Source: an uncultured Thermoanaerobaculia bacterium
GTDB taxonomy: Bacteria > Acidobacteriota > Thermoanaerobaculia > Multivoradales > JAGPDF01
Reading direction: 5' to 3'
Length of the DNA: 64,000 nucleotides
Assembly (NCBI GenBank): GCA_964471955.1
Contig: CAYYIK010000007.1
Location: 2,729 to 66,728 of the forward strand
The position numbers and the translations under genes are program-made. The notes beneath the pieces were generated by a model, which saw only the letters and a program-made list of their open reading frames with translations, had not been told where the DNA came from and did not search any database. Of the stretch, positions 7,591 to 60,208 are shown piece by piece (the first letter of the stretch is position 1; every line of letters starts with the position of its first letter).

Positions 7591-9219
7591 TCAATTCGCC
7601 GCCACCTCCGACCAGCGCAGCAGGTCGCCACGCTCGAAGCCGTCGCGGAAGAGACCCAGCGCGTAGAAGACGTTCACGGCGCCGGCGTTCTCGACCGCTC
7701 CGGCGTCCTCGTCCGGCGCGCCGACGGCGAGATCTTCGAACCCGTTGCCGTCGAAGTCGCCGGCGGCGAGGGCGGTGCCGAGCCGGTCCCCCGCCTCGGG
7801 AGTGCCGGGAGCCGTGCCGGCCTGGTTGAGCTCTACGTGGAACAGCGGCGCGCCCGCGGCCCGGCCGGTGAACGCGAAGGCGGAACCGGCGGCGTTCTGC
7901 CCGGCGACGTCGACGCCGTATCCGCCGACGACGAGGTCCGCCGTGGGGCCGGCATCGAATCTCCCGGCCGCCACCGCGGATCCGAAGTGATCGAAGCCGG
8001 CCGGCGAGCTTCCGGTGTCGGTTCGCTGGATCTTCCAGGCGAAGGTCGGCTCGAGGCCGCCGCCGGCGCCGCGCAGGACGTGGACCGATCCGGCGCTCGG
8101 CACGATGGCGGGCGCCTCGATGTCCTCGTAGAGCGAGCCCACCGCGAGGTCGTCCCGGCCGTCGCCGTTGAAATCCGCCGCCACCAGAGAGAAGCCGAAC
8201 CAGTCCTCGGCCTCCACCTCGGCCGGCACCGCCTGGCTCTGGGTGACGAAGCGCGCGCGGCTCGCACTCAGGCCGAGGCCGGTTCCGAAGATCACGGACA
8301 CGGCGCCGGCGTCCTCGAGGACGCCGATGTCCTCGCGCGGCGAAGCCACCGCCAGGTCGTCGTGCCCGTCGCCATCGAAGTCGCCCGCCGCGAGCCGCCA
8401 ACCGAAGCCGTCACCGGCCTCCTCGATCGACAGGTTGAGGTCCGCCTGGACCCAGATCTGGTCCGCCACCGGCGCGAAGTCGGGCGACAGGCCCGACGGC
8501 GACCCGTAGAGGACGTTGACGGCCCCCGAGTCGGCGACCGCACCGACGTCCTCGCCCGGTACGCCGATGGCAAGGTCGACGAAAGCGTCGCCGTTGAAGT
8601 TGCCCGCCGCCAGGGAGCGGCCGAATCCGTCCTCCGACTCGGCGACTCCCGCGACGCCCCCGGCGCCCTGGTGCCAGAGCTGGCTGCCGGCGGCGGTGAT
8701 CCCGGAGAGACCGCCGTGGAGCACCAGCACGGCGCCCCCGCTGTACGCCGTGCCGCCGGAACCGGGGACGTTGCGCCCGGGGATCCCCACCGCGAGGTCG
8801 TCGAAGCCGTCGTCGTCGAAGTCTCCGGCCACCAGCGCCGTGCCGGCCAGGTCCTCCCACTCGCTCGGACCGTGGGCGGTCCAGTCGATCGCCCACGTCT
8901 CCGACCCGCTCGGGTCGAGACCCGAGGCCAGCCCGTAGACGACCGTGACCTGCCCCCCCATCGAAGCCCCGGCCAGGACGGTCTCGCCCGGGGCCGCGAT
9001 CGCCAGGTCGTCGAAGCCGTCGCCGTTGAAGTCTCCGACCGCGAGCTCCCGCCCGAACAGATCGCCGGCCTCCGCGCCGTCCGGAACGCCACCCGCCCCC
9101 TGTTCCAGAATCTGTGCCCCGGCCAGCCCGAGCTGCGCGTGAATCGACGTGGAAAAGGCGAGCGCGCCCGCCAGCGAGAGGACGGCCGCCGGCCGCCCGA
9201 TCGATCGATCGAAACCCAT
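7591..9219 (-). CDS. secreted FG-GAP repeat protein carrying the shared C-terminal tail motif
   Basis: Signal peptide MGFDRSIGRPAAVLSLAGALAFSTSIHAQ; repeated FG-GAP units (GDFNGDGFDDLA, GDFDDDGFDDLAVG, GNFNGDAFVDLAIG, GDFDGDGHDDLAV); ends ...LFRDGFERGDLLRWSEVAAN. Confidence 0.75.
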   Translation of the reverse strand: MGFDRSIGRPAAVLSLAGALAFSTSIHAQLGLAGAQILEQGAGGVPDGAEAGDLFGRELAVGDFNGDGFDDLAIAAPGETVLAGASMGGQVTVVYGLASGLDPSGSETWAIDWTAHGPSEWEDLAGTALVAGDFDDDGFDDLAVGIPGRNVPGSGGTAYSGGAVLVLHGGLSGITAAGSQLWHQGAGGVAGVAESEDGFGRSLAAGNFNGDAFVDLAIGVPGEDVGAVADSGAVNVLYGSPSGLSPDFAPVADQIWVQADLNLSIEEAGDGFGWRLAAGDFDGDGHDDLAVASPREDIGVLEDAGAVSVIFGTGLGLSASRARFVTQSQAVPAEVEAEDWFGFSLVAADFNGDGRDDLAVGSLYEDIEAPAIVPSAGSVHVLRGAGGGLEPTFAWKIQRTDTGSSPAGFDHFGSAVAAGRFDAGPTADLVVGGYGVDVAGQNAAGSAFAFTGRAAGAPLFHVELNQAGTAPGTPEAGDRLGTALAAGDFDGNGFEDLAVGAPDEDAGAVENAGAVNVFYALGLFRDGFERGDLLRWSEVAAN

Positions 9220-9332
9220 GAGTTCCCCCTTTCGCCGCGACGGGTCGTGCCCGTCCCTCGCTTGCATCGCGAAAAGGGGAGAGACTGCGACAGTGCCATT
9301 CGGGGCGGCCTCCACGGCGCCGGACAGAGCGC

Positions 9333-9361
9333 GGGGCGACCCCGCGCCGCGGAGTCGCCCC
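9333..9361 (-). terminator. GC-rich stem-loop (GGGGCGAC / GTCGCCCC, 13-nt loop) downstream of the M16 peptidase gene
   Basis: perfect 8-bp inverted repeat seen in sequence; no U-tract, so function as a terminator is uncertain. Confidence 0.2.
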
Positions 9362-9399
9362 GGGTGAGGCCGTCGACCGGCCGGCAGCCGCCGGCGAAC

Positions 9400-12159: not shown

Positions 12160-12286
12160 GGCGGAGTCCTCCCGGGAAGTGGTCCAGCAGAATACGCGGA
12201 AAGGTCGCCCCGGGTTGCGTCGGGAGGGATCTCTCCGAGCACGGGCGCTGCGGATTCCCGCCGCCCGCTGCTATCCTCGTCCGGCC

Positions 12287-15237: not shown

Positions 15238-15246
15238 GCAGCTCCC

Positions 15247-15996
15247 TCAGGGAAGCGAGCCCGACCAGTGCGTGGTATCTCCGGTCTCGAAACCGTCGGC
15301 GAAGATGTCCGCCGTGCAGTAGAGAATCCGCACGTCGTCGAGATACCAGCCCATCCGGTTGACCACCGTGGTGGCGTGCAGCCTGAATTCGATGTCGATC
15401 GCAGGCATGCCGGCGAACGCGGAGAGATCCACCAGCTGCAGCTGCCAGTCGGGCGTCGGCGTGGCGTCCGGCACGAAGTACTGGCTCACCCCTTCGACGA
15501 AGACGTCGGCGCGATCGAAGGTCATGAAGACCTCGTACCAGTGGGCCCATTCGAGCGCGATCGGCGCCTGCAACGTGCTGAAGTCGAAGCTCTGCGACAG
15601 CGAGCTGTCCTGGCCGCTGTTCTGGTAGCAGCCGTCGAGATTCGTCCCCATGACGGCCGCGCCGTTGTACACCCCGGAGGGCTCGGGGCGCGGCGTGGTG
15701 TCGCACAGCTCGTAGACGCCCGTCGTCACCCCGCCGCGCTCCCAGTCGCCGAATCCGCTCTCGACCCAGCCCCCTTCGTCGACTTCGAAATCGGCGGCGT
15801 GGAACTCCGCGACACCCGTGCCCGGCGGGCAGACCATCCCCACCCCGTTCGCCAGGGCCGCCGGGGCGGCGGGTGACCGCCGGGCGCGCTGGTCGGCGAT
15901 CATCTCCTCGATCGGTGAGTCGGCGGCCAGAGGGAGCGGCAGCAATGCCGCCAGACAGAGGGGTGCGATCCACTTCGCGTTGCGAAAAGTGACCAT
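15247..15996 (-). CDS. secreted hypothetical protein (jelly-roll/MAM-like) carrying the shared C-terminal tail motif
   Basis: Signal peptide MVTFRNAKWIAPLCLAALLPLPLAA; ends ...DIFADGFETGDTTHWSGSLP. Confidence 0.6.
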   Translation of the reverse strand: MVTFRNAKWIAPLCLAALLPLPLAADSPIEEMIADQRARRSPAAPAALANGVGMVCPPGTGVAEFHAADFEVDEGGWVESGFGDWERGGVTTGVYELCDTTPRPEPSGVYNGAAVMGTNLDGCYQNSGQDSSLSQSFDFSTLQAPIALEWAHWYEVFMTFDRADVFVEGVSQYFVPDATPTPDWQLQLVDLSAFAGMPAIDIEFRLHATTVVNRMGWYLDDVRILYCTADIFADGFETGDTTHWSGSLP

Positions 15997-16164
15997 GCGA
16001 CCTCCTTCCGGGGCCGGGCGCCACCGCCTTGCCTCGCGAGCCGATCGCGACCGGCGCTGTTCGGAACTGCGCCGAATCTAGGCCCTTCTCCTCGCCGCGT
16101 CAAACCGGGCGCGGATGCTACGATCGCGCCGTCCCGGCGGGCCTTCTCCCGCCGCGGAGGGACC

Positions 16165-17841: not shown

Positions 17842-17873
17842 CCCTCCGCGGCCGGCCAGAAGGGAACGACTTC

Positions 17874-21723: not shown

Positions 21724-21782
21724 CGGGTGGGTCGCCGGCGCCCATGTTAGCGCCGGAGCGACCCACCCGCGGATGTCCTGCG

Positions 21783-24599
21783 TCACAGGGCGGTGGCCGA
21801 CCACTCCAGCAGATCGCCGCCTTCGAAGTCGTCCGAGAAGAGCGATGCCGGCAGGACGATCACCTGGAAGGAGACCGCGCCACCGGTGAGATTCGCCACT
21901 ACCAGGCCGAGCCAGTCACCGAGAGCCGCGGGATTGTTCAGGCCCCCCCGCTCGGTCGCGGTCCCGGAGCTGGAACGGTTGCGCGCCAGCACGTACTCGC
22001 TCTTGCGCTTCGTCCAGCTGGCGGAGTTCGCCGGATCGGAGCGGTATCCGTAGATGGCGAGGTCGGCGCTGCCGCTCACCGGGACGACGCGGACACGGCG
22101 ATGGCTCGCCGCCGGAACCCAGACGTCGAAGACCGAGAGGACGTTCGCGGCTGCGTGCGTCACCGGCCCGAGCGTGATCGGTGAGCTGGAGCTTCCGGCT
22201 CCCAGGCCGAGGTTGGTGAACTGCAGATTGTAGCCATCCGTGCCCGCGAACCGGTAGACGCGGTAGTGCTCCTGGGTCGTCGTCCGGTGATTGCCGTCCA
22301 CCGCGACGAAGTCGATGGCGCTGCCGGCGTAGGTCGACGTCTCGTTGACCGTCCGCACGCCGGGGTTGACGAACAGCGAGTGACTGGCGAGCTCGAGGTC
22401 GTGATCCGAGGTTCCCGCCGGACGGATTCCAACGGCGCGCCAGTAGTTGTTCGGCGACCAGTCGGCCGGAAAGACCGCGAGGTGGGTGCCCGTCGGCGCG
22501 GGCACCTGATCGGTATAGCCGACCTCGGGCACGATCCGGTACTCGCCGCGCCACCAGCCGGCGCCGAGCCAGGTGCCGCCCGAGCTCCAGTCGGACGAGA
22601 AGAGCGAGGCGCGGAAGCGGTAGGTCTCCGAGGCTGGAGCGATGAAGTCGATGATCTCGTAGGCGTTGCGGACGCTCGACGAGCAGGTGATCACCGTCGT
22701 GTTGTCGGCGCGATAGGCGCACAGGTCGATGTCGGCCGGCAGCGGGTCCGTGGTGTAGGCCGCGTTGGGGTTGGTCGACCAGGCGATGGCGAAGCGCACC
22801 CGCTCGCCCGCGTAGGCGTACTGCGAGTAGTTGATGGGGAACGTCGTCGTCGAACCGATGGACTGGACCGCCCAGTTGCCGCGCTCGGCCGAGGCCGCCG
22901 CCGCCGCGCCGACGATGCCACCCGCGCCGTCCTTGTCCGAAAGGCGCGTCGCCCCTTCGACGTTGTGGATCGCCGTCGCCATCAGCAGCGCTTTGACCGC
23001 CTCCGGGTCGTTCTCGATCGCCGGGTCGACTTCCATCACGTCGGCGGCGAGCGCCGTGACCATCGGTGCCGAGTAGCTGGTGCCGCTGCCGACGGGGCCG
23101 ATCCAGGGGCTGGAGGTCGTCGTGCTGGTGATCGAGGAGCCGACGCCGGCGATTTCGGGCTTCTCCTGCGTCCCGGTGCCGGCCGAGTTGTTCGGGTTGC
23201 CGAAGCTCGAGCAGTTCGACATCACGTCGCCGGTCCACGTCAGGCTGTCGAGGTCGTCGTAGTTGCCGACCGCCAGGATGTTGTGCCCCTTGGCGGGCGA
23301 GGTGACGTAGGTCGAGAAGTTGCCGCCGCACCCGTTGCCGAAGTTGCCCGCCGCAACGACCACCGTGTCGAAGTGGGAGCGCACGAAATAGTCCATCTGC
23401 CGATCGACACTCCAGAAGTTCGGGTTGTTGGCGCTGTCCCAGTACCAGCTGTTGTTGAGCACGCGGGCGTTGGACGACCCCCACTCCATCGCCGCCGACA
23501 TGACGCCGAAATCGGAGTAGCTGCCGTTGGCGCTGTGCAGGTCGACTTCGTCCGCCAGGCCGTGCTGCGTCGCGTCGGTGCTGCGCACCATGCCGCCCAC
23601 GGCGGTCGGATGGCTGGCGTAGGGCTGTCCGCAGGCGTAGCAGGCGGAGAGGGTGAGGAACGGATTGGCGAACGAGGCGCGCTCCCCCTCGGTGATCGAC
23701 ACCTCGACGCCCGTGCCGTCGTAGCCCACGTTGTTGGGCACCAGCATGTTCTGCGTCGGGCGCGCGTTGGCGAGCAGCGGGCCGCCCTGCCCCGAAGCGT
23801 CGTAGAGCGCGTCGATCTCGGGCCAGAAGGCGAGTTCCTCGAGGACCTCCCGGCGCCCTTCGAGCACGACGAGCGGGGAGAGCTCGCCGGCGAACGTGAT
23901 GTCGAGGTCGAGCGCCGTCACGCGGCCGAGGAAGTCGGCGCGCGCCGGCGCGATGAGCTCGCGGATCAGTCGCTGGCGCTCGGCGTCCTCGGCGCGCAGG
24001 GCCGCCTGGACCGCTTCGCGGTGCGCCTCGCGGCGCGGATCGACGATACGAAGATCGCCCGGCTCACCCTTGGAGAGCTCGGGGGCGGCGTCGGCGCGGG
24101 TCACCGGAGCGTCCGGATCCGGCTCGGCGGCCTCGCCCAGCGCGCTGCCGGCCTCGCGGCCGGTCGGCTTCGGAGCGAGTCGCTCGTCCGGCAGGGCCGA
24201 CAGGTCGACGGCGAGCCAGGCCGTGACGCGCAGGCGATCCGCCGGGCCGAGCTGGTCGAGGTGCCGGCGCAGGTCCGGGGTAACGGCGCCGTGGCGGGCC
24301 CGCCAGGCGTCTCCCGCCCGCCGGATCTCGGCGTAGCGGTCGACCACCCGCTCGCCGTCGAGCGCCACGCCGACGATCTCGCCGGTTGCCCGGTCGATCG
24401 CCTTGACGGTCTCGATCCGGCGGCCGTCGGCCAGCGTGTCGACGGTCGTCTCGATCTTCTCGATCGAGTCGGGATCCAGGCCCAGGGCGGCCGCCAGGCG
24501 ATCGCCGGCATCCTCCGCCCGGACGGGAGCCGCCAGGGGGAGCGCCCCCAGCAGCAATGAGGTGAGCAGTGCGGTTCTGATTCGACCGGAATTTCGCAT
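21783..24599 (-). CDS. secreted S8 family serine peptidase (subtilase) carrying the shared C-terminal tail motif
   Basis: Signal peptide MRNSGRIRTALLTSLLLGALPLAAPVRA; subtilase Ser motif GTSYSAPMVTALAADVM; ends ...SLFSDDFEGGDLLEWSATAL; RBS upstream of the start. Confidence 0.85.
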   Translation of the reverse strand: MRNSGRIRTALLTSLLLGALPLAAPVRAEDAGDRLAAALGLDPDSIEKIETTVDTLADGRRIETVKAIDRATGEIVGVALDGERVVDRYAEIRRAGDAWRARHGAVTPDLRRHLDQLGPADRLRVTAWLAVDLSALPDERLAPKPTGREAGSALGEAAEPDPDAPVTRADAAPELSKGEPGDLRIVDPRREAHREAVQAALRAEDAERQRLIRELIAPARADFLGRVTALDLDITFAGELSPLVVLEGRREVLEELAFWPEIDALYDASGQGGPLLANARPTQNMLVPNNVGYDGTGVEVSITEGERASFANPFLTLSACYACGQPYASHPTAVGGMVRSTDATQHGLADEVDLHSANGSYSDFGVMSAAMEWGSSNARVLNNSWYWDSANNPNFWSVDRQMDYFVRSHFDTVVVAAGNFGNGCGGNFSTYVTSPAKGHNILAVGNYDDLDSLTWTGDVMSNCSSFGNPNNSAGTGTQEKPEIAGVGSSITSTTTSSPWIGPVGSGTSYSAPMVTALAADVMEVDPAIENDPEAVKALLMATAIHNVEGATRLSDKDGAGGIVGAAAAASAERGNWAVQSIGSTTTFPINYSQYAYAGERVRFAIAWSTNPNAAYTTDPLPADIDLCAYRADNTTVITCSSSVRNAYEIIDFIAPASETYRFRASLFSSDWSSGGTWLGAGWWRGEYRIVPEVGYTDQVPAPTGTHLAVFPADWSPNNYWRAVGIRPAGTSDHDLELASHSLFVNPGVRTVNETSTYAGSAIDFVAVDGNHRTTTQEHYRVYRFAGTDGYNLQFTNLGLGAGSSSSPITLGPVTHAAANVLSVFDVWVPAASHRRVRVVPVSGSADLAIYGYRSDPANSASWTKRKSEYVLARNRSSSGTATERGGLNNPAALGDWLGLVVANLTGGAVSFQVIVLPASLFSDDFEGGDLLEWSATAL

Positions 24600-43069: not shown

Positions 43070-43085
43070 GGAAGCGTCCTCTCCT

Positions 43086-46327: not shown

Positions 46328-46328
46328 G

Positions 46329-47543: not shown

Positions 47544-47652
47544 GGGGAACTCCCGCCCGGCGGCCGCAGCACCGGACCGCGGTGCGCGATCGGGGGAGCC
47601 GCCGGTAGCGCCATTGTAGCGGCGGGCGCGTGTCGGCAAGTAGGATCGGCAG

Positions 47653-49786: not shown

Positions 49787-49787
49787 C

Positions 49788-50309: not shown

Positions 50310-50321
50310 GACGTCTCACTC

Positions 50322-50825
50322 TCAGGCCGGGCTCGGGAAGATTCCGAACAACGAAATGATGAAATTGACGCAGAGATAGGGCTGGAAGTTCGTGTGCGGC
50401 TGGCTGCCGCCCGTCGACCCGATCGCCGCAGCATTCATGTTTCCGCTCGGAGCGTCGTTGATGTACGGGGTGACGTTGAAGGAGTTCGCCGGGAGATTGC
50501 CCGAAGCGTTGATCTGGTCCCCGGTAACTCCGGCGGCGAGCAGCGGATGGCCGTGCGCCGGAATCTGCTGAATCGTGAGCGTGATCTCCTCCGCGCCTCC
50601 GGTCTCCGCGAGGATGAATCCGCTCCCCTGATGAATCGGAATCCGCCCGCGCAGGTCGGGCAGCGCGAAGGTGGACTGCCCGTCGCCTCCGTAGGTGGTG
50701 CCGATCAACTGGAACAACGTCTCGTTCTCCGAGATCGGCAGCAGCTGACCCTCGCACAGCATCCAGCCTGCCGGCGCGAAGTTTCCGCCGAACATCCGGA
50801 TCTCTCCAACGTAAGGTTGCGCCAC
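50322..50825 (-). CDS. phage tail collar domain protein, paralog 2
   Basis: MAQPYVGEIRMFGGNFAPAGWMLCEGQLLPISENETLFQLIGTTYGGDGQSTFALPDLRGRIP. Confidence 0.85.
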   Translation of the reverse strand: MAQPYVGEIRMFGGNFAPAGWMLCEGQLLPISENETLFQLIGTTYGGDGQSTFALPDLRGRIPIHQGSGFILAETGGAEEITLTIQQIPAHGHPLLAAGVTGDQINASGNLPANSFNVTPYINDAPSGNMNAAAIGSTGGSQPHTNFQPYLCVNFIISLFGIFPSPA

Positions 50826-50835
50826 GACGGCCTCC

Positions 50836-51336
50836 TCAGTTCGGGCTCGGGAAAATGCCCTGGAGGGCGATACAGAAGCTGATCGTGAGGAACGGCTGCA
50901 TGTTCAGATGCGCCTGGCTTCCTCCGACGGCGGTCACGGTGGCGGAGCTCATGGCGACCAGGGATGCCGGCGCGTGGTAAGCGTTGTTGGCCCCTCCGAG
51001 GACCCTTCCCGCCGGATTCACGTTGCCGCCGGTCGAGGCCGAGGAGACCGCCAGCACATGCACGTGTTGCGGCATCTCCGCGATCGACAAGGTGTGGGCC
51101 TGCTCTCCCCCGCGCTCACCGAGCGTGTGCGCCGATCCGACGTGAATCGGGGCGCGCCCGCGCAGGTCGGGCAGCGCGAAATTGACGCGGCCGTCGCCGC
51201 CGAAGGTCGTTCCCAGGAGAGAAAACAGGGCCTGGTTCTGATTGATCGGCAACAGCTGGCCGTTGCAGAGGGCCCAACCCTTGGGAGCGAACTGGAAGCT
51301 GAACAGTCGAACTTCGCTCAGGAACGGTTCGGCCAT
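50836..51336 (-). CDS. phage tail collar domain protein, paralog 3
   Basis: MAEPFLSEVRLFSFQFAPKGWALCNGQLLPINQNQALFSLLGTTFGGDGRVNFALPDLRGRAP; RBS GAGAGGAAG upstream. Confidence 0.85.
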   Translation of the reverse strand: MAEPFLSEVRLFSFQFAPKGWALCNGQLLPINQNQALFSLLGTTFGGDGRVNFALPDLRGRAPIHVGSAHTLGERGGEQAHTLSIAEMPQHVHVLAVSSASTGGNVNPAGRVLGGANNAYHAPASLVAMSSATVTAVGGSQAHLNMQPFLTISFCIALQGIFPSPN

Positions 51337-51372
51337 GGTCTTCCTCTCATCCGCGACTCGTGCACCAGCGCG

Positions 51373-54300: not shown

Positions 54301-56514
54301 CGACGTGTAGCTGAACGTGCCGTCCGAGGCGACCGCGACCACCGCGCCGGCGGTCGCCGTACCGAGCGACGTGGTCAACGCCGCCGGGCCGTCCGGATCG
54401 CTGTCGTTGGCGAGCAGGTTCCCCGCCGCGAAGACGTAGGGACCGTTCGCGTCCGGCCCGGGATCGATTGCCGCGACCCGCAGCCGGGTGTTCGAAATCG
54501 TCTGGAACGACTCGCCGGTGATCACCGGAGGATCGTTGACCGGCGTAACGGTGACGCTCTTCGACGCCGTGTTGCTCGGATCGGCGCCGTCGTTCGCGAC
54601 GAAGGTGACGAGGCGGTCCGGCAGGGCCGTCGGGCTCTGGGAAGCGTTGGCGTAGAGGACCGAGCGCAGGCAGCCCTGGTAGACCGCGACCGTCGCCGTT
54701 CCCGAGATCGCCAGCGCGTGGCCCGGCGCGGAGACGACGAGGCCCGGGCAGGTTGTGCCCGGCGCAGCGACCGAGAGCGCCTCCTGGCCGCCGTTCTGCG
54801 GATTCGTCAGCGACACGATCGCCGAGACGAGATCCGCGTCGTCGGCGTCGGTGACGTTCAGCGCACCGTCGACCACCACCGCGCCGGCGTCTTCGACGAA
54901 CGAGGTCGCGCCGCCGCTGGTTGTGACCACCGGTACATCGTTGACCGCGGTGATCTCGACCGTCGACGTCGCGGCGGCGCTCGACTCGACGCCGTCGCTC
55001 GCGCTCCAGGTTACCGTGCGGTCGGACGGGTCGGGATCCTCCGAGCTGTTCTCGTAGGCGACCGAGCGCAGCGCCGCCTGCCAGGCAGCGACGGTATCGA
55101 GTCCGTTCAGGGCGAGGGTGCCGGTCGCCGGCGCGAAGACGCCGGTGATGCTGGGCGTGTTCGTGAACGACAGGACGTCTTCCCCGCTCTGGAAGTTGCC
55201 GGTGATCTGCACCGTCGCCGAGACCAGATTGGCGCTGTCGACGTCGCTGACCGTGAGCGCGGCGTCGACCGCGGTCGGCGGATCGTTCTCGGTGTAGGCG
55301 AGCGTGCCGCCGGCGACGACGACCGGCGGCGCGCGGTCGATCACGATCCGGGCGCGGGCCGTGGCCGGGCCGATCGGCGCGCCCGAGGCGTCCACCGTCG
55401 GGTCTCCCGCCGCCGCGGCGATCGTGTAGGCGAAGTCGTCGACGCCGTTGAAGCCGGCCGGCGGCGTGTAGACGAAGTGCCCGTCGGCGGCGACGTCGAC
55501 GCTGCCCCCCTGGCTGGTTGCCTGCCCCGCCGCCGGCACCGCGGCGAGCGAGTCGCCGTCCGGATCGGTGTCGTTGCCGAGCAGCGCGGGCAGCGCCGCC
55601 GTCGAGCTGTCGATCGGCTGGTCGGTGACCGTCCGGTAGACGTCGGGTCGTGCCAGCGGCGTCGTGCGCACCGAACCGGCGACCAGCGCCAGATTGGAGT
55701 CGAGGATGTCCGCGAGCTCGACGCCCGTGGCGCCGCCACCGGCGTTCGAGATCGTGATCCGGTAGCGAATGGTGTCTCCCGGCACGACCGCGCCGGGAAT
55801 CGGATCCCCGGCCGGCGTGCGGTCGACCTTGAGCGCCGCGAGTTCGGGAGCCGCCGTGCGCAGCTCCGAGAGCATCAGCGCCGGCGTCGCTTCCCCCGAC
55901 TCGACGCGAAGGACGATCGCGCCCACCGCGGAGAGATCCGCCGGCGTCGCCGCGCCGGGCGCCTGCGCCAGGCTCGAGAAGTCGACGAAGATGTCGACGG
56001 GAGCCGCGATCGCCGGCAGGACCAGGGCGCCGCGCGACACCGAATCGGCGTCCTCGTAGATCTCGAGCACCAGGGAGGTGCCCGCCGCCGCCGCGTCGAT
56101 GGTGAAACGGAAGGCGCCCGCGCCGCCGGCGGTCAGGTCGACGCCGCCCAGCCCGGCCGGGTCGATCGCGTCGGGGTCGCTGTCGCCGTCCCAGATCACG
56201 AAGACCGCACCGCGCGAGTCGGGCGTGGTCGCGGTGACGCCGACGTCCAGCGCGCCGCCCGCCACGCCGGCGGTGACCGGCCCCGCTCCGGCGAAGCGTT
56301 GCACCCGCAGTCCGCGGTTCTGACCGAGGATGTCGGCGCCGCCGGTGACCGCGTTGCTGGCGCCGCCGGGCGGATCCGAGATCACGGTCTGGTTGGTCGT
56401 GAACTGATCGACGACGACCTGGCCGGCGACCGGTGCGGCGGCCAGGACCAGTCCGGCGACGAGTGCGGCGAGCGCGGCGGGCCGTCGCGGCGAGGGTCTC
56501 ATGGCGCCTCTCAT
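51373..56514 (-). CDS. giant (1713 aa) secreted protein: N-terminal DUF11-like and cadherin-like/VCBS-type domains followed by extensive right-handed parallel beta-helix repeats
   Basis: ATG overlapping the upstream DUF11 gene stop (ATGA); signal peptide MRGAMRPSPRRPAALAALVAGLVLAAAPVAG; repeated ...VNDVPVV/VNDPPVI... cadherin-like boundaries; long G/T/N/A-rich beta-helix region. Confidence 0.8.
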   Translation of the reverse strand: MRGAMRPSPRRPAALAALVAGLVLAAAPVAGQVVVDQFTTNQTVISDPPGGASNAVTGGADILGQNRGLRVQRFAGAGPVTAGVAGGALDVGVTATTPDSRGAVFVIWDGDSDPDAIDPAGLGGVDLTAGGAGAFRFTIDAAAAGTSLVLEIYEDADSVSRGALVLPAIAAPVDIFVDFSSLAQAPGAATPADLSAVGAIVLRVESGEATPALMLSELRTAAPELAALKVDRTPAGDPIPGAVVPGDTIRYRITISNAGGGATGVELADILDSNLALVAGSVRTTPLARPDVYRTVTDQPIDSSTAALPALLGNDTDPDGDSLAAVPAAGQATSQGGSVDVAADGHFVYTPPAGFNGVDDFAYTIAAAAGDPTVDASGAPIGPATARARIVIDRAPPVVVAGGTLAYTENDPPTAVDAALTVSDVDSANLVSATVQITGNFQSGEDVLSFTNTPSITGVFAPATGTLALNGLDTVAAWQAALRSVAYENSSEDPDPSDRTVTWSASDGVESSAAATSTVEITAVNDVPVVTTSGGATSFVEDAGAVVVDGALNVTDADDADLVSAIVSLTNPQNGGQEALSVAAPGTTCPGLVVSAPGHALAISGTATVAVYQGCLRSVLYANASQSPTALPDRLVTFVANDGADPSNTASKSVTVTPVNDPPVITGESFQTISNTRLRVAAIDPGPDANGPYVFAAGNLLANDSDPDGPAALTTSLGTATAGAVVAVASDGTFSYTSPAGRTVDDSFTYNVSDGDVSVQGTVTISFLQRVWYVRNDATAGGLGRSIDPFDTLVEAQTASGANDWIFVYNGDGATTGQNAGITLKAGQHLVGEGAGLSIPVVLNGGASPVVLIAPGTRPMLDNTTVGGSAVMATDLIPTEIVGLNLAGNANAVDVTLTGAFGGSGALTIANNTVRASGAEGIDVNAGGTGTLTLSIHDNSITAGGTGLDVARTNGTVQVTAFDDNVVSGNTGGSGLVLTGPLTLDATPGGAYQQVAGGATVVGAPGNGVGASGLVLTNVSGDLAFTDLDVFADNGAAIRVSGTGAVNVGAGTGTRVSVGAGVGMAEATGGPAVDLSNLTASLPLTTIRSTNTTTTGVSLATVLDAINPAFDAQFTAGAGSTITTAAGAAGPAFNVSGGNGRINYAGTITNNSATARAVSITTWAGDDASDDLLLSGAVDENGAGILLNGNAGSRAITFSGGLDIDTTTGEGFAATSNTNALGLNITGINTIDSVSATALRVTSTPIGTSNLSFRSISSGNATAAADPANGLILNATGGAGRLIVSGTGSAATGGTIRNATSTGISLTSTLNPSFSWMQLDDFGDFAIRGASVTGFNLDNSVVNGVNGNSAAADEGSIRFSELTGTATFTNCNVSGGFEDNLRIVNTAGALTVTLSGVTIGANSLSDGNDGAYFETLGSAGATMNVTVQNGAFTSARGDLIQVNNNSNGAFTFAFTGNTLSNNHGGIATGGGGVSFFAGATSSDTFVVQNNSFRDAVGPAVLIVKPTGVGSLDLTFQGNTIGAAATPNSGSLEGSALKIQSVGQGAIDALISGNTIRWYNNFGIELLTGGGATAQPGALNATITGNLITLPGTNPATASIPKNGIHLNAGTVPGDTYQICLDAGGAGALQNSVSTAGAPSDIPAGGEDIRLRQRQATTVALRGYAGANNDNTAVQNYLIARNSGDGVPSAIASNTVPTGGGFVNTPGGAACPLP

Positions 56515-59468
56515 GGCACGACGGCGCTCCAGCGCGAGGTATCGCCCGTCTCGAATCCGTCATTGAACAGCAGCGGCGAGGGCCGCACGTAGAGCTGATC
56601 GAAGTGCGCGGTAAACAGGGCGTCCGTGGTTGTCCTGGCCTCGATCGTCCAGCGAGCCGAGGCGGTGCCGGCGGGCGCCCGCTGCGGGTCGACCAGTTCG
56701 AGCCAGGCTCCGGCCGAGTCGAAGAACGGCTGGGCGACTTCGACCGAACCCGCCGTTCCCGTGCAGCCGGCGCCGGTGAAGTACTCGACGCGTCGCGCCA
56801 CGGTCACCGGCGTGCCGGCGCTGGCGGCGATCCGCACGCGGGTCACCAGCTCATAGTCGGCGGCGACCAGCGGCGTGCACTGGGCGACGGAGAATTCCGA
56901 CGGACCCTGCGGCGGGCCGAGCAGCGGATCGATCCGCAGCGCCCCCGAGACCGGCGCGTCGTCGAGGTCGACGGCCGGATCGTGGATCACGTCGCCGGTG
57001 CCCTCGGGCGTCGCCTGCCAGGCCCGCAGGTCGCAGTCGAAGTGGCCGTTGAGCAGGCGATTGCCCGCATCGATCCGGAATCCGAGCTCGTGCTCGTCGT
57101 CGCCCGAGGGGGTCGAATCGCCGTCGAGCGGGTTGCCCGCGACGTCCTCGAGCGTCGGGCAGACCAGCAGCCGGTAGGGGCGGTCGCCGAGCGCTTCGCC
57201 GAAGGTCACGGTCGCGACCGACGGAGAAGCCTGATAGACGACTGCGGTGGCGTCGATCGCCACGTCGTCGCCGGCCGGTGGCCCGCACAGCGCGGTCGAG
57301 AACGCGCCGTCGGGACCGGTCGCGAACAGCCGGTAGTTGTCCGGGTTGGTGACGTCCTCGGGGTCGGCGTCGCCGGCCGGATCGGCCATCTCCTCGCTGA
57401 ATTCGAGCGCGAGCGCGGTCGGCGTGGCGAGCACCGTGTCGCACTCCGCGATCTCGCCGTCGGGGCTCGCGGGGACCGAGTCGACGATCACGATCGTCGG
57501 TGCGGTGAGGTCGAGCGCCACCGTCTCGCAGTCGTCGTTGTCGCCCGGGACCGGGTCGGGCCCGTTCGAGCCGTCGTCGGCGATCGAAGCGCAGTTGTCG
57601 ATCTCGGTCGTGCCCGGCGGCAGCGGGTCGTCGAGCTCGACGGCGAAGACGGCGATGCCCGCGCCGCCACCGCCATCGAGAGATCCGATCGCCAGATCAC
57701 AGGCGGTGCCGGCGGGTGCACCGTCGGCGCACGACCAGCCGGCGGTCGAGGCCGCGGCGTCGAAGGTGGTGTCGACCGGCACCGTCTCGGACAGGACGAC
57801 GCCGACAGCCGTCTGGTTGCCGGCGTTCGAATAGGCGAGATCGAAGGCGATCGTGTCACCCGGGAACGGCACGCCGCCCGAATAGCTCTTGACAATCGCC
57901 AGGTCCGGCGCGGCTTCGATCGGCGTGGAGTCCTCGGCGCCGTTGTCGCCCGGGTTCGGGTCGGCACCGTTGGCGCCGTCGTCGGCCACGCTGGCGACGT
58001 TGACCACCTCGCTGACGCCGGCGGGCAGCGGCGTCTCGACTTCGACGGCGAACGTCGTCGAGCCGCTCCCCCCGCCCGCCACCGCACCTACCGCGTACGT
58101 GCAGGCGGTGCCCTCGGGCGAGCCGTCCGGGCACGACCAGCCGGGCGTCGAAGCCGCGGCGTCGAAGACCGTGAACGGCGGCACGAGCTCCGACAGTACG
58201 ACGCCGGTCGCCCCCTGGTTGCCGCCGTTCGACCAACCAAGCGCGTACGGGATCGTGGAACCAGGAGTCGACGTGATCCCGCCGTCACTCTTGGTCAGCG
58301 CGAGGTCCGGCTGGGCGTCGACAGGCGTGGTGTCCGAGGCCGAGTTGTCGCCGGGATTCGGATCGGCGCCGTTGACGCCGTCGTCGGCGATCGAGGCCGT
58401 GTTGGCGATCTCGGTGACGCCGGCGGGGACCGGATTCGCGACGGTAACCGCGAAGGTCGCCGAGCCCGAGGCGCCGCCGCCGACGAGCGAACCGACCGCG
58501 AGCGTGCAGACCGCGCCCGGATTGCCGTCGGGGACGCACAGCCAGCCGGCCGTCGACGCGCCCGGGGCGAAGACCGCGTTGGCCGGAACGGTCTCGCTGA
58601 GCGTCACGCCGGTCGCCTCCTGATTGCCGTCGTTGGCGTAGGAGAGGACGTAGGCGACGGTCGCGCCCGGGACCGCCGAGATTCCGCCGTCGCTCTTGGC
58701 CAGGGTCAGGTCGGGCGCGGCGTCGACCGGAGTGGTGTCGGTCGAGCTGTTGTCGGCCGGCGTCGGGTCGGCGCCGTTGGCACCGTCGTCGGCGATCGTC
58801 GCCGTGTTCGAGATCTCGTCGAGCCCCGCCGGCACCGGCGAGTCCACAGTGACCGCGAAGGTCGCCGAACCCGCAGCGCCGCCGCCGGCGAGCCCGCCGA
58901 CCGTCAAGTTGCAGACCGACCCCGGGTTGGCGTCCGGAACGCAGATCCAGCCCGCGGTCGAGGCGCCGGCGTCGAAGGTGGTGCTCGCGGGCACCACTTC
59001 GCTCAGCGTCACGCCGCTCGCCGCCTGGTCGCCGTCGTTGGCGTAGGCGAGCAGGTAGGCGACGGTTCCGCCCGGAACGACCGAAACGCCGCCGTCGCTC
59101 TTGGCCAGGCTGAGATCCGGCTGGGCAACGACCGGTGTGAGGGTCGGGTCCTGGGCGCCCGGCTCGCCGGGATCGTCCGTGAGCAGCGTGGCGGCGTTGG
59201 TCGCCTGGATGGTCGCCTGATTGGTCACCTCGACGACTCCGGCCGGCAGCGGCGTGTCGACGGTCACCAGGAACTCGATGGTGACCGCGCTGCCTGCCGG
59301 CAGGATGCCGATCGACGTGTCCTGCGCCCACGCGGTCGCGGCGGCGCCGAAGGCCGCGCCTGCGATCAGCCATCTGCGAAGCCACGCGTGCCGCGAAACC
59401 AACCGCTCGCTCCTTCCGTCGACGACGGGATGCGGACGCAGCATAGAGACTCCGCAGGCGCGATACAA
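56511..59468 (-). CDS. secreted DUF11 (conserved repeat domain) protein with C-terminal jelly-roll/CBM4_9-like domain and the shared C-terminal tail motif
   Basis: At least four tandem ~125-aa repeats each beginning PDL(S/T/A)L(A/T/V)KSDGG...; C-terminal domain LLNGHFDCDLRAW...; ends ...LLFNDGFETGDTSRWSAVVP. Confidence 0.8.
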   Translation of the reverse strand: MYRACGVSMLRPHPVVDGRSERLVSRHAWLRRWLIAGAAFGAAATAWAQDTSIGILPAGSAVTIEFLVTVDTPLPAGVVEVTNQATIQATNAATLLTDDPGEPGAQDPTLTPVVAQPDLSLAKSDGGVSVVPGGTVAYLLAYANDGDQAASGVTLSEVVPASTTFDAGASTAGWICVPDANPGSVCNLTVGGLAGGGAAGSATFAVTVDSPVPAGLDEISNTATIADDGANGADPTPADNSSTDTTPVDAAPDLTLAKSDGGISAVPGATVAYVLSYANDGNQEATGVTLSETVPANAVFAPGASTAGWLCVPDGNPGAVCTLAVGSLVGGGASGSATFAVTVANPVPAGVTEIANTASIADDGVNGADPNPGDNSASDTTPVDAQPDLALTKSDGGITSTPGSTIPYALGWSNGGNQGATGVVLSELVPPFTVFDAAASTPGWSCPDGSPEGTACTYAVGAVAGGGSGSTTFAVEVETPLPAGVSEVVNVASVADDGANGADPNPGDNGAEDSTPIEAAPDLAIVKSYSGGVPFPGDTIAFDLAYSNAGNQTAVGVVLSETVPVDTTFDAAASTAGWSCADGAPAGTACDLAIGSLDGGGGAGIAVFAVELDDPLPPGTTEIDNCASIADDGSNGPDPVPGDNDDCETVALDLTAPTIVIVDSVPASPDGEIAECDTVLATPTALALEFSEEMADPAGDADPEDVTNPDNYRLFATGPDGAFSTALCGPPAGDDVAIDATAVVYQASPSVATVTFGEALGDRPYRLLVCPTLEDVAGNPLDGDSTPSGDDEHELGFRIDAGNRLLNGHFDCDLRAWQATPEGTGDVIHDPAVDLDDAPVSGALRIDPLLGPPQGPSEFSVAQCTPLVAADYELVTRVRIAASAGTPVTVARRVEYFTGAGCTGTAGSVEVAQPFFDSAGAWLELVDPQRAPAGTASARWTIEARTTTDALFTAHFDQLYVRPSPLLFNDGFETGDTSRWSAVVP
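57520..59170. repeat. intragenic tandem repeats (~375-bp period) encoding the DUF11 repeat units
   Basis: Protein-level repeats AQPDLSLAKSDGG / AAPDLTLAKSDGG / AQPDLALTKSDGG / AAPDLAIVKSYSGG each followed by ...PG.T..Y.L...N.G.Q.A.GV.LSE.VP; boundaries approximate. Confidence 0.55.
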
Positions 59469-59572
59469 GCGTCACGCGACGGTTTCGTCGTGGCGCGCGC
59501 GGCTTGACGTGCGGAGAGCGACGCCGTACGGTTGCCGCCGCCGCTGGGCGCGGCAACGCTGTGGAAGGGAGC

Positions 59573-60208
59573 ATGATGCCTACCGGAAGAGTCCTCAGTC
59601 TCCTCGTCGCCGGGCTGCTCGCCGCCGGGCAGCTGCGCGCCGCCGAGCTGCTGCCCAACGGTCGATTCGACGACCCGGGAACGGGAACCGCCGGCTGGGT
59701 GGCAGTCGATCCGTTCTCGAACCTCGCCTGGGACGGTAGCCGCGACGCCGATGGTTGCGCCGGCTCCGGCTCCGCCGCCCTGACCAACAGCGCCACTACT
59801 TCCGATGCCGGGGCGCGCTTCGCCAGCTGCGCCGCCGCGGTCCCCGGCGCCACGGATTACGGCTTCGGCGCCTCGATCCTCTTCCCGATGCAGGAGCGCG
59901 AGGGCTCGGCCTCCGTCGCCGTCCACTGGATCGAGGGTACGGGGTGTGCCGGCGCCGTGCTCGGCACTTCGAACACCCCCCCCGCGCTGTCGTCGATCGA
60001 AGAGGTGTGGATCTCCCTCGCCGGCACGGCGACGGCGCCGGCGGCGACCGGCAGCGCGCTGATCGTGGTAACCCTGACCAAGAAGGTCGGCGGCTCCGAA
60101 CTCACGGCGCGGCTCGACGAGGTGGCGCTGCGGCCGCCCGGCGAGATCTTCGGCGAGGGCTTCGAGGTTGGCGCCGTCTGTCGCTGGACCGCCGCTGCGA
60201 CCGACTGA
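59573..60208 (+). CDS. small secreted protein: stand-alone copy of the jelly-roll/CBM4_9-like domain found at the C-terminus of the adjacent DUF11 protein, with a divergent tail motif
   Basis: ATG 59573 with RBS GGAAGGGAG; signal peptide MMPTGRVLSLLVAGLLAAGQLRAA; LLPNGRFDDPGTGTAGW, DYGFGASILF, WIEGTGCAG and ...ARLDEVALRP align with the C-terminal region of the 56511-59468 product; ends ...EIFGEGFEVGAVCRWTAAATD. Confidence 0.55.
   Translation: MMPTGRVLSLLVAGLLAAGQLRAAELLPNGRFDDPGTGTAGWVAVDPFSNLAWDGSRDADGCAGSGSAALTNSATTSDAGARFASCAAAVPGATDYGFGASILFPMQEREGSASVAVHWIEGTGCAGAVLGTSNTPPALSSIEEVWISLAGTATAPAATGSALIVVTLTKKVGGSELTARLDEVALRPPGEIFGEGFEVGAVCRWTAAATD

What the first reader, a model, noticed from the sequence alone, without database searches (positions are those of the whole stretch)
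7591..60208. Shared extreme C-terminal tail (F-x-D-G-F-E-x-G-D-x-x-x-W-S + 3-5 aa) on five otherwise unrelated secreted proteins: candidate novel sorting/secretion tag
Read directly from the translations. The last ~18 residues of five Sec-signal-bearing proteins are near-identical in pattern although the mature domains are unrelated:
- FG-GAP protein (tail at ~7591-7653): LFRDGFERGDLLRWSEVAAN
- 249-aa jelly-roll protein (15247-15300): IFADGFETGDTTHWSGSLP
- S8 subtilase (21783-21840): LFSDDFEGGDLLEWSATAL
- DUF11 protein (56511-56573): LFNDGFETGDTSRWSAVVP
- small CBM-like protein, degenerate version (60130-60208): IFGEGFEVGAVCRWTAAATD
The tail is acidic, contains no hydrophobic helix and has no basic end, so it is unlike PEP-CTERM, LPXTG, GlyGly-CTERM and other sortase/exosortase/rhombosortase signals. 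It is far shorter than a T9SS CTD. The proteins also have N-terminal signal peptides, which argues against a T1SS signal.
The motif resembles the first beta-strand of CBM4_9/laminin-G-like jelly-roll domains (N-G-x-F-E-x-G-x-x-x-W), so it may be a donated or complementing strand or a recognition tag for a dedicated processing or anchoring partner.
Five hits in 64 kb suggest a genome-wide family.
Basis: partly seen in the sequence, partly recalled or inferred. Interest (0 to 1): 0.85.

Follow-up and report, generated by a model that had tools for sequence, protein, structure and literature searches.

The report
Orphan beta-strand tag on secreted proteins
Five unrelated secreted proteins in this window end in the same 19-residue tail, which is the detached first beta-strand of a polysaccharide-lyase-fold domain; the rest of that domain is made as a separate secreted protein elsewhere in related genomes, so the tail most likely works as a snap-on docking tag of a kind not described before.

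Summary
All five tails are real, lie at the extreme C-terminus and cannot be chance (expected about 1e-7 terminal matches, 5 seen). The same tail, consensus [LIV]F-x-DGFESGDTSAWS-x-x-VP-stop, ends more than 100 unrelated Sec-exported proteins, mostly in Acidobacteriota (Thermoanaerobaculia, Holophagae). No Pfam or NCBIfam model covers it as a tag.

Homologues of the cargo proteins carry PEP-CTERM or IPTL-like anchors, or belong to families named for other dependent anchors, at the same position.

By profile comparison the tail equals columns 1-20 of a roughly 200-residue jelly-roll domain (Pfam PF14099 Polysacc_lyase fold). A large family of about 215-residue secreted proteins, some named Thermoanaerobaculia, equals columns 20-202 and lacks the first strand. 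The two halves are exactly complementary.

In about half of the acceptor loci, a tail-bearing gene lies directly upstream or within 10 kb. In three loci an anti-sigma-type protein's periplasmic end carries the strand motif.

Best explanation (0.6): a naturally split domain in which the tail docks by beta-strand complementation into the acceptor, which sits in exopolysaccharide-type gene clusters. Binding, location and function are inferred. No acceptor lies in this window.

The parts
7594..7653 (-). Strand tag (tail) LFRDGFERGDLLRWSEVAAN, followed by TGA at 7591-7593
   Evidence: matches positions 1-17 of the complete-domain HMM family (for the other window tails)
7591..9219 (-). Cargo 1: FG-GAP repeat protein. 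Signal peptide MGFDRSIGRPAAVLSLAGALAFSTSIHA. The start at 9219 is inferred; the longest ORF reaches 9315.
   Evidence: Pfam FG-GAP 1.1e-53
15250..15306 (-). Strand tag IFADGFETGDTTHWSGSLP, stop at 15247-15249
   Evidence: HMM positions 1-17, E 2.4e-4. In the AF2 model the tail (231-249) is unstructured, pLDDT about 50, while the core is 83-96.
15247..15996 (-). Cargo 2: 249-aa secreted MAM-like jelly-roll protein
   Evidence: (InhA-like_MAM, E 0.0077). Homologues carry this tail, IPTL-like, PEP-CTERM or TM+RRR anchors at the same place.
21786..21842 (-). Strand tag LFSDDFEGGDLLEWSATAL, stop at 21783-21785
21783..24599 (-). Cargo 3: 938-aa secreted S8 subtilase
   Evidence: Peptidase_S8 3.2e-18
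56514..56570 (-). Strand tag LFNDGFETGDTSRWSAVVP, stop at 56511-56513
   Evidence: HMM positions 1-17, E 6.8e-5
56511..59444 (-). Cargo 4: DUF11-repeat protein with a C-terminal jelly roll (start at 59444 inferred). Its end overlaps the start of the 1713-aa Big_9/cadherin-like gene (51373-56514).
60146..60205 (+). Degenerate strand tag IFGEGFEVGAVCRWTAAATD, stop at 60206-60208
59573..60208 (+). Cargo 5: small secreted jelly-roll-like protein with no family hit (start at 59573 inferred)

Best explanation
The tail is one half of a naturally split protein domain.

**The three forms.** A complete domain of about 200 residues (a jelly roll of the polysaccharide-lyase fold, Pfam PF14099-like) starts with the strand-and-loop I-F-x-D-G-F-E-S-G-D-x-x-x-W-S. 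In Thermoanaerobaculia and relatives, dozens of unrelated Sec-exported proteins (proteases, FG-GAP and BNR propellers, DUF11 and beta-helix adhesin-like proteins) end in just these 19 residues. A separate secreted protein of about 215 residues supplies the remaining strands and lacks this one.

**Proposed mechanism (inferred).** After export, the flexible tail inserts as the missing first strand into the acceptor. Its Trp would pack into the core and its C-terminus would end where the acceptor's mature N-terminus begins. This would dock many cargos non-covalently to one acceptor.

**Proposed role (weaker inference).** The acceptor is encoded in loci for polysaccharide synthesis or modification (sulfatase-family, ALGX, MBOAT, methyltransferase, GT2 genes). 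The reconstituted domain may therefore tether the cargo to an exopolysaccharide or the cell envelope, which is the role that PEP-CTERM or IPTL-type anchors play in homologues.

**Proposed regulation (inferred).** Some ECF sigma/anti-sigma pairs place the same strand on the periplasmic end of the anti-sigma factor, next to the acceptor gene. This suggests a circuit that senses free acceptor.

**Shown:** the motif, its position, its spread, the exact complementarity of the two halves, and the gene linkage. **Inferred:** binding, stoichiometry, cellular location and function.
For: 1. The tail is real, terminal and far beyond chance.
Of these, 107 lie within 10 residues of a stop and 76 have exactly 5 residues after W. 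The 80 record titles printed are mostly Acidobacteriota.
3. Cargos are diverse and mostly carry signal peptides. They include families defined by alternative C-terminal anchors: choice_anch_Q 6/62, choice_anch_B 2/62, and rhombosortase-, myxosortase- and T9SS-dependent M36 families.
4. Homologues of the window's own 249-aa protein carry this tail, IPTL-like, PEP-CTERM or TM+RRR anchors at the same site.
5. Internal occurrences of the motif always begin a complete domain of about 190 residues. In 92 multidomain proteins, 153 of 201 domain copies have the motif directly upstream by a strict regex, and most misses are near-matches. Only 1 of 78 stand-alone proteins has it.
6. Profile-profile alignment: complete-domain columns 20-202 align to acceptor columns 24-218 (probability 100%, E 3e-55). 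Complete-domain columns 1-20 align to the last 20 tail columns (97.3%, E 2.4e-11).
8. Linkage: the gene directly upstream of the acceptor ends in the tail in L054, L129, L131, L133, L136, L137 and L145, and in a tail-like motif in L144. Canonical tail genes lie 7-8 kb from the acceptor in L126/L151, L158 and L159.
9. Anti-sigma-type proteins have a periplasmic part that carries the motif, next to or near acceptor genes, in L138/L139 and L162 (both zf-HC2) and L163 (a small single-pass protein).
10. Acceptors are named Thermoanaerobaculia by NCBI, the same class as most tail genes and as the closest homologues of window proteins.
11. In the AF2 model of the window's 249-aa protein the tail is not docked in cis.
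Against: - No physical evidence of binding, and no complex model could be computed with these tools.
- The acceptor models confidently on its own, so it may not need a donated strand.
- The position of the first strand in the sheet (edge or centre) was not determined.
- No acceptor gene lies in the 64-kb window. The window's genome is not in the searchable collections, so co-occurrence in this organism is unproven.
- About half of the acceptor loci have no tail gene within the sequence available.
- Only one acceptor homologue turned up in about 950 kb of tail-centred loci.
- Most adjacent pairs come from lower-GC metagenome contigs of unknown taxonomy.
- The AF2 result for the tail rests on an alignment with only three tail-bearing rows.
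- The polysaccharide-anchoring role rests on gene neighbourhood alone.
Confidence: 0.6

Rival explanations
1. The tail is a classical many-to-one sorting signal. A dedicated peptidase or transporter recognises it and cleaves it or uses it for outer-membrane translocation, as sortase, exosortase, rhombosortase or T9SS do. The resemblance to a jelly-roll first strand would then be only its evolutionary origin.
For: - It occupies the position where homologues carry PEP-CTERM, IPTL-like, MYXO-CTERM, GlyGly-CTERM or T9SS signals.
- The distance to the free C-terminus is fixed: 76 of 107 have exactly 5 residues after W, which suggests recognition of the terminus.
- Tail genes cluster: 23 of 99 loci hold two or more, and this window holds five.
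Against: - There is no hydrophobic helix, basic cluster, Cys or glycine-rich motif.
- No known sorting-signal model matches.
- No protease or transporter family recurs next to tail genes. The only recurrent neighbours are an ECF sigma factor and a Ser/Thr kinase.
- This reading does not explain the exactly complementary acceptor family or its operon linkage.
Confidence: 0.17
2. The tail acts in cis or has no present function. It could be a leftover of a lost C-terminal lyase-like domain, or a short strand or Ca-binding cap that packs onto the cargo's own last domain.
For: - Fused versions exist in the order cargo, strand, remainder (L066, L071, L076), so truncation is a plausible origin.
- Several cargos end in their own jelly roll just before the tail.
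Against: - Over 100 unrelated proteins keep the same 19 residues with the stop at the same offset and a conserved x-x-V-P end. A decaying remnant would not do this.
- The domains preceding the tail include propellers, proteases and beta-helices that could not share one docking site.
- AF2 leaves the tail undocked on the 249-aa protein.
Confidence: 0.08
3. The tail is mainly a regulatory or quality-control signal. The acceptor would be a periplasmic sensor that samples exported proteins' C-termini and relays load to an ECF sigma factor, analogous to DegS sensing of outer-membrane-protein C-termini. No anchoring role would be involved.
For: - Three loci pair anti-sigma-type proteins carrying the motif with acceptor genes.
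- ECF sigma genes recur near tail genes, including in the window at 21148-21750.
Against: - Most acceptor genes sit in polysaccharide-type loci without sigma/anti-sigma genes.
- Homologues of the cargos use true anchors at this position.
- The ECF/kinase pairs near tail genes are a very abundant acidobacterial family and lack the motif.
Confidence: 0.1

Closest known systems
Donor-strand complementation in chaperone-usher pili, type V pili, archaeal threads and jelly-roll cannulae/AbpX (abstracts found: 10.1101/2024.12.30.630787, 10.64898/2026.01.04.697558, 10.1101/2022.04.26.489512)
   Same: One polypeptide supplies a beta-strand that completes an incomplete beta-sandwich in another polypeptide. 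The donor is a short terminal extension. In cannulae and AbpX the fold is also a jelly roll.
   Different: Those systems polymerise copies of one subunit family into filaments. Here a single acceptor family would receive the strand from dozens of unrelated enzymes and adhesin-like proteins. The fold is polysaccharide-lyase-like, the donor is C-terminal, and no usher or chaperone is evident. Complementation here is inferred, not demonstrated.
C-terminal sorting signals with dedicated enzymes: PEP-CTERM/exosortase, IPTL-CTERM, LPXTG/sortase, GlyGly-CTERM/rhombosortase, MYXO-CTERM/myxosortase (PMC3237569; 10.1101/2023.06.07.544157)
   Same: A short extreme C-terminal tag on many unrelated Sec-exported proteins, with many-to-one logic. 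Homologous cargos swap this tail for those signals.
   Different: The tail has no signature-motif/TM-helix/basic-cluster architecture and no intramembrane or transpeptidase partner was found. It is acidic and amphipathic, and it is homologous to a structural strand of a globular domain.
Cohesin-dockerin docking of secreted enzymes (own knowledge)
   Same: A small C-terminal module on many different secreted enzymes docks non-covalently to a common receptor module.
   Different: Dockerin is an autonomous Ca-binding domain of 60-70 residues that binds the surface of a complete cohesin. Here the tag is 19 residues and would become part of the receptor's fold.
Pfam PF14099 Polysacc_lyase / CAZy PL13 heparin lyase I and PL20 glucuronan lyase fold
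   Different: Sequence identity is about 10%. There is no PDB relative by sequence, and stand-alone acceptors fall below the Pfam and NCBIfam thresholds. Lyase activity is untested, and no split form of these lyases is known to me.
T9SS C-terminal domain (PMC5445135, PMC12618676)
   Same: A C-terminal element on Sec-exported proteins that is bound by shuttle or acceptor proteins after export.
   Different: The T9SS CTD is a folded beta-sandwich of 70-100 residues found in Bacteroidota and is removed by PorU. The tail is 19 residues, cannot fold alone, and no T9SS model matches it.
SpyTag/SpyCatcher, the engineered split CnaB2 domain (own knowledge)
   Same: A short peptide strand tag reconstitutes a beta-sandwich with a strand-less partner.
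   Different: It is man-made and locks through an isopeptide bond. Here the split is natural and nothing suggests covalent bonding.

Membership tests
PEP-CTERM / IPTL-CTERM (exosortase-type) sorting signals | Signature motif (PEP or IPTL) followed by a hydrophobic transmembrane helix and a basic cluster at the C-terminus | tested here: not met
   The tails have no hydrophobic stretch and no Arg/Lys cluster. There is no PF07589 or NCBIfam hit on 106 tails at E<=10. Homologues P0297-P0299 and P0269-P0271 do carry such signals.
LPXTG / GlyGly-CTERM / MYXO-CTERM and related sortase, rhombosortase and myxosortase signals | Tripartite signal with LPXTG, a Gly-Gly motif or an invariant Cys, then a TM helix and basic residues | tested here: not met
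   Sequence reading. No model hits the tail positions. The rhom_dep_M36, MtsC and MXAN_5453 matches are single-member hits named for cargo families; which residues they cover was not shown.
T9SS C-terminal domain | A folded beta-sandwich CTD of 70-100 residues (TIGR04183/PF18962 type) in T9SS-bearing Bacteroidota | tested here: not met
   The conserved part is 19 residues, the upstream sequence is unrelated between proteins, and no model hit was found.
T1SS C-terminal secretion signal | No N-terminal Sec signal; uncleaved C-terminal signal, usually preceded by RTX repeats | tested here: not met
   All five window proteins, and at least 59 of 81 complete relatives by a crude rule (more by eye), have Sec-type signal peptides.
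Outer-membrane-protein beta-signal | C-terminal strand ending in an aromatic residue (F/W/Y) on a beta-barrel protein | tested here: not met
   The tails end in P, N, L or D, with the modal ending x-x-V-P. The cargos are soluble-domain proteins.
Pfam PF14099 Polysacc_lyase domain (tail as its N-terminal fragment) | Sequence match to the domain profile | tested here: inconclusive
   The complete-domain protein P0029 scores 51.2 bits against a cut-off of 29.9, with profile position 1 at the motif. The tails align to columns 1-20 of the complete-domain profile (97.3%, E 2.4e-11). The tail alone cannot reach the Pfam threshold, and L049 is sub-threshold.
Pfam PF14099 Polysacc_lyase domain | Jelly-roll fold of PL13/PL20 lyases | tested here: met
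Pfam PF14099 Polysacc_lyase domain | Lyase catalytic residues and activity | not tested
   No catalytic-site mapping or assay was possible with the outputs available.
Donor-strand complementation systems | An acceptor domain that lacks one strand of its fold | tested here: met
   Acceptors align to complete-domain columns 20-202 only. Of 78 stand-alone proteins, 77 lack the motif, whereas 153 of 201 fused copies have it.
Donor-strand complementation systems | The missing strand is encoded on a different polypeptide that is genetically linked to the acceptor | tested here: met
   A tail-bearing gene lies directly upstream in L054, L129, L131, L133, L136, L137 and L145 (a tail-like motif in L144), and within 8 kb in L126/L151, L158 and L159.
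Donor-strand complementation systems | Physical insertion of the donor strand into the acceptor sheet | not testable with these tools
No complex could be modelled.
Cohesin-dockerin | A dockerin of about 65 residues with duplicated Ca-binding loop-helix motifs | tested here: not met
   The tail is 19 residues with no duplicated EF-hand-like segment, and no Pfam Dockerin hit was found.

The most novel reading that the evidence does not exclude
This is a natural many-to-one 'strand tag' system. Dozens of exoproteins per genome carry the 19-residue first strand of a polysaccharide-lyase-fold domain. A single secreted acceptor, encoded in exopolysaccharide loci, completes its fold with that strand and so couples the exoproteome to the polysaccharide matrix or cell surface. 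ECF anti-sigma factors display the same strand as a decoy to measure free acceptor. This would be a new class of protein anchoring or sorting in diderm bacteria and a natural counterpart of split-protein tags.
Probability: 0.45. Interest if true: 0.9.

Novelty: categorically new. Interest (0 to 1): 0.82.

Why it matters
How Acidobacteriota, which are abundant but poorly studied soil and sediment bacteria, display or retain their large complement of secreted hydrolases and adhesin-like proteins is largely unknown.

A 19-residue tag with no membrane anchor, paired with a strand-less acceptor, would add a new principle to the short list of bacterial protein-anchoring mechanisms: non-covalent docking by completing a split domain.

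It would allow the surface or matrix proteome of these uncultured lineages to be predicted from sequence. It would explain a large set of 'hypothetical' secreted proteins of about 215 residues (3,275 cluster representatives at E<=1e-3). It would also offer a natural short peptide and partner pair for protein engineering.

The idea can be tested directly with a synthetic peptide and one recombinant protein.

Tried and rejected
- **Exact look-up of the window's 249-aa protein in public assemblies:** not on record, so the source genome could not be examined for an acceptor.
- **Literature searches** for the motif string and for related concepts: nothing describes this tail. Only analogies were found.
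- **Known sorting-signal models:** none match. The weak NTTRR-F1 hits (positions 5-22 of 155) are another jelly-roll N-terminus, not a tag model.
- **Stop-codon recoding or readthrough:** rejected. Stops are TGA, TAG and TAA in related loci, and the downstream DNA encodes other genes.
- **A dedicated protease next to tail genes:** neighbour clustering over 119 loci found only ECF sigma and Ser/Thr kinase pairs and common housekeeping families. The M16 and M1 peptidases beside the FG-GAP gene in the window did not show up among the recurrent neighbour clusters.
- **Acceptor in the window:** none found with sensitive HMM settings.
- **Solved structures related by sequence to the complete domain:** none.
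- **First** failed because of wrong coordinates (frame with stops) and was repeated.
- **Kinase ORF at 20048-21766:** only the kinase domain (about 20174-20941) is homologous to the long kinase/AAA/TPR proteins of other loci. The gene structure of 17.9-20.0 kb remains unresolved.
Full report
**1. The observation**

A six-frame regex scan finds F-x-[DE]-[GD]-F-E-x-G...W[ST] at only five places in the window. Each lies 4-5 residues before a stop codon. The composition-based expectation is about 3e-6 for the motif anywhere and about 1e-7 for the terminal form, and 200 Markov-shuffled windows gave none.

All five proteins have N-terminal signal peptides by eye. Their mature parts are unrelated: FG-GAP, a weak MAM-like jelly roll, Peptidase_S8, DUF11, and one with no family.

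The window is a 72% G+C chromosomal stretch with housekeeping genes: plsX-fabD-fabG-fabF, yceD, ETF-QO, xanthine-dehydrogenase-type subunits, ribosomal protein S1 and a GT4 cluster. The closest homologues of one window protein are labelled Thermoanaerobaculia by NCBI. The source genome itself is not in the searchable collection.

**2. Spread**

I scanned one genome per species with the DNA pattern TTC NNN GAC GGN TTC GAG NNN GGN GAY N9 TGG, which contains no stop codon. The 80 record titles printed are overwhelmingly Acidobacteriota MAGs (Thermoanaerobaculia, Holophagae, Multivoradales, Sulfomarinibacteraceae).

Of 128 matches, 107 have a stop within 10 residues after the Trp, and 76 have exactly five residues. 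The consensus is [LIV]F-x-DGFESGDTSAWS-x-x-VP-stop. Stop codons are TGA 56, TAG 43 and TAA 8, so recoding is excluded.

About a quarter of the 8-kb loci hold two or more tail genes, which matches the five in this window.

**3. Not a described signal**

Neither the five proteins nor 106 tail segments hit any Pfam or NCBIfam (release 20, June 2026) model for a C-terminal signal, even at E<=10. The only recurrent weak hit, NTTRR-F1 positions 5-22 of 155, is the N-terminus of another jelly-roll domain. Full-text searches found no paper with the motif or the concept.

**4. The tail sits where anchors sit**

- Sixty-two complete tail-bearing proteins hit 41 Pfam families at E<=1e-4: propellers, beta-helices, S8, M14, trypsin-like and others.
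- They include families that NCBI defines by alternative C-terminal anchors: choice-of-anchor Q (6), choice-of-anchor B (2, E 9e-153), and M36 peptidases that depend on rhombosortase, myxosortase or T9SS.
- Homologues of the window's own 249-aa protein end, at the same point after the conserved ...NRMGWYLDD-x-x-I strand, in one of several ways. They carry this tail (P0267, P0268), a DUF11 module plus an IPTL-like signal (P0269-P0271, P0273; P0269 and P0270 labelled Thermoanaerobaculia), PEP-CTERM (P0297-P0299), or a TM helix plus RRR.
- This is comparative evidence that the tail substitutes for an anchoring signal.

**5. What the tail is**

The minority of internal matches (Actinomycetes, Limnocylindrales, Haloarcula, Vicinamibacteria, Acanthopleuribacter, one Thermoanaerobaculia) all place the motif at the start of a complete domain of about 190 residues. 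An HMM of that domain matches every tail over its positions 1-17.

A profile of the rest of the domain finds 3,275 cluster representatives at E<=1e-3. Among the best 150 hits plus the earlier hits:
- 92 multidomain proteins hold 218 copies, and 153 of 201 scorable copies have the motif immediately upstream by a strict regex. Most misses are near-matches.
- Of 78 stand-alone proteins of 196-261 residues (77 of them signal peptide plus domain), only one has the motif anywhere.

One complete-domain protein passes the Pfam PF14099 Polysacc_lyase threshold, with the profile starting at the motif. No PDB relative exists by sequence.

**6. Two exactly complementary halves**

Profile-profile alignment gives the following:
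- Complete-domain columns 20-202 align to acceptor columns 24-218, that is, from just after the signal peptide (probability 100%, E 3e-55).
- Complete-domain columns 1-20 align to the last 20 columns of the tail alignment (97.3%, E 2.4e-11).

The tail therefore ends within a residue or two of where the acceptor's mature N-terminus (A-N-[ST]-L-x-V) begins.

In the AF2 model of the window's 249-aa protein, the jelly-roll core is confident (pLDDT 83-96) and the tail is unstructured (about 50). This fits a free tail, but the evidence is weak because few alignment rows carry the tail.

**7. Genomic linkage**

The first acceptor was found 214 nt downstream of a tail-bearing cytochrome-c-like gene in a Polyangiaceae MAG (L054).

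Among 28 further acceptor loci from metagenomes and 10 from look-ups:
- The gene directly upstream ends in the tail in L129, L131, L133, L136, L137 and L145, a conserved family of about 250 residues ending ...IFFDNFGTGD-x-x-RWS-x-x-GS (L133 ends ...LFFDGFEDGAINRWSAD). L144 carries a tail-like motif.
- Canonical tail genes lie 7-8 kb from the acceptor in high-G+C contigs L126/L151-L156 (FG-GAP protein and a 603-residue protein with an N-terminal membrane segment), L158 and L159 (reprolysin-like protease).
- The L126 acceptor is identical to a protein that NCBI labels Thermoanaerobaculia. So are two other acceptors.

Fused forms in the order cargo, strand, remainder occur in L066, L071 and L076. 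This is the classic fusion-versus-split argument for interaction.

Acceptor genes sit in a recurring neighbourhood of sulfatase-family, ALGX, MBOAT, methyltransferase and GT2 genes. This is the make-up of a polysaccharide synthesis or modification locus.

In three loci an anti-sigma-type protein's periplasmic end carries the strand motif:
- L138/L139: ECF sigma, then a zf-HC2 anti-sigma factor ending ...LFMDGFESGKPDSWNGEDL..., then the acceptor.
- L163 (Thermoanaerobaculia): ECF sigma, then a 106-residue single-pass protein ending ...IFLDGFEPGDLSRWNVVIQPSTGLEDS, then the acceptor.
- L162: a zf-HC2 anti-sigma factor ending ...LLFATGFEDMSGWTRVV..., 9 kb from an acceptor.

**8. Mechanism, with levels of support**

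- *Shown:* the tag, its terminal position, its taxonomic spread, its identity with the first strand of a PF14099-like jelly roll, a large family of secreted strand-less partners, and their gene linkage.
- *Inferred, confidence about 0.6:* after Sec export the tail inserts as the missing strand into the acceptor and docks many cargos to one acceptor.
- *Weaker inference, about 0.3:* the completed lyase-fold domain binds or acts on an exopolysaccharide and so tethers cargos to the matrix or envelope. The anti-sigma decoys measure free acceptor.

**9. Rivals**

- A cleaved sorting signal with an unknown enzyme or transporter (0.17). This is not excluded. It would need a partner that neighbour analysis did not reveal, and it leaves the complementary family unexplained.
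- A cis-acting or vestigial strand (0.08). The conserved stop offset across more than 100 unrelated cargos argues against it.
- A purely regulatory role (0.1). It fits the anti-sigma cassettes but not the polysaccharide loci or the anchor swaps.

**10. Limits**

- No complex could be modelled, no coordinates were available to place the first strand in the sheet, and no binding data exist.
- No acceptor lies in the window, and the source genome could not be searched.
- Roughly half of the acceptor loci show no tail gene in the sequence available.
- The genome scan was truncated, so the taxonomic range is a lower bound.

**11. Novelty**

The tag fails every tested defining feature of the known C-terminal signals. 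Its proposed mode of action resembles donor-strand complementation in pili and archaeal jelly-roll filaments, and resembles cohesin-dockerin in logic. It differs from both in fold, in partner architecture and in many-to-one use. I found no description of it in Pfam, NCBIfam or the literature library.

Noticed in passing
window 20048-21766 (-) and 21148-21750 (-): An ECF sigma factor (PF07638, 3e-39) and a Ser/Thr protein kinase lie directly downstream of the S8 tail gene on the same strand. The kinase domain maps to about 20174-20941. The same sigma/kinase pair recurs next to tail genes in about 10 of 119 related loci. This may be regulation of tail-bearing genes, or it may only reflect how abundant this pair is in Acidobacteriota.
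   Followed up: partly
window 17892-20048: The gene structure is unresolved. Long ORFs on both strands (17892-20018 on the minus strand, 18527-21547 on the plus strand) have atypical codon-position G+C or no family hit. The kinase ORF stops after the kinase domain and lacks the AAA/TPR part seen in relatives.
   Followed up: partly
window 49788-51336 (-): Three tandem paralogues of 166-173 residues share the N-terminus M-A-x-P-F-[VL]-x-E-[IV]-R-x-F and the C-terminus ...QP[YF]L...GI/VFPS. They lie just downstream of the 1713-aa Big_9/cadherin-like gene. They look like phage-tail-collar or MdpB-type proteins, but that is from memory and was not scanned.
   Followed up: no
window 51373-56514 (-) and 56511-59444 (-): The DUF11 tail gene's stop codon lies within a few bases of the start of the 1713-aa Big_9/cadherin-like secreted protein's longest ORF, so the two are probably one operon. 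The large protein has a signal peptide but no tail; it ends ...GGAACPLP.
   Followed up: partly
window 56511-59444 (-) and 59573-60208 (+): Both proteins have, before the tail, their own jelly-roll domain. Its first strand is a looser version of the same pattern (LLNGHFDCDLRAWQA; LLPNGRFDDPGTGTAGWVA). The tail is therefore a second first-strand-like element after a complete domain.
   Followed up: no
L126 4126-6807, 6833-9535, 12557-13135; also L120, L132, L134: The sulfatase-family proteins that flank acceptor genes end in a second conserved extreme C-terminal motif, L-[RK]-[AS]-L-G-Y-[LIVN] (for example ...LTARLKALGYLQ, ...QQLRALGYN, ...ELRALGYI). Its meaning is unknown.
   Followed up: no
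L138 63-2186; L163 5970-7935; L162 19114-20380: These are three-gene cassettes of ECF sigma, an anti-sigma-type protein and the acceptor, in which the anti-sigma-type protein's short periplasmic part carries the strand motif. This suggests a partner-switch sensor built from the same split domain.
   Followed up: partly
P0264 (402 aa): One protein combines a signal peptide, the complete domain (strand plus remainder), a DUF11 module and an IPTL-like C-terminal sorting signal (VPTLAGGGALLLGGLLAGVALRKLRRRG). It is a covalently anchored version of the domain.
   Followed up: no
L133 547-1029 (+): A second short ORF lies between the tail gene and the acceptor and also ends in a tail-like sequence (...MLFFDSVETGGNDRWSPNN). 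It may be a small tail-only peptide or a chance frame.
   Followed up: no
window 9400-12159 (-) and 11885-14353 (+): A secreted double M16 peptidase lies directly upstream of the FG-GAP tail gene on the same strand, with an M1 peptidase ORF next to it. The two longest ORFs overlap at their 5' ends, so the starts are over-called. These peptidases did not appear among the recurrent neighbour clusters of the related loci.
   Followed up: partly
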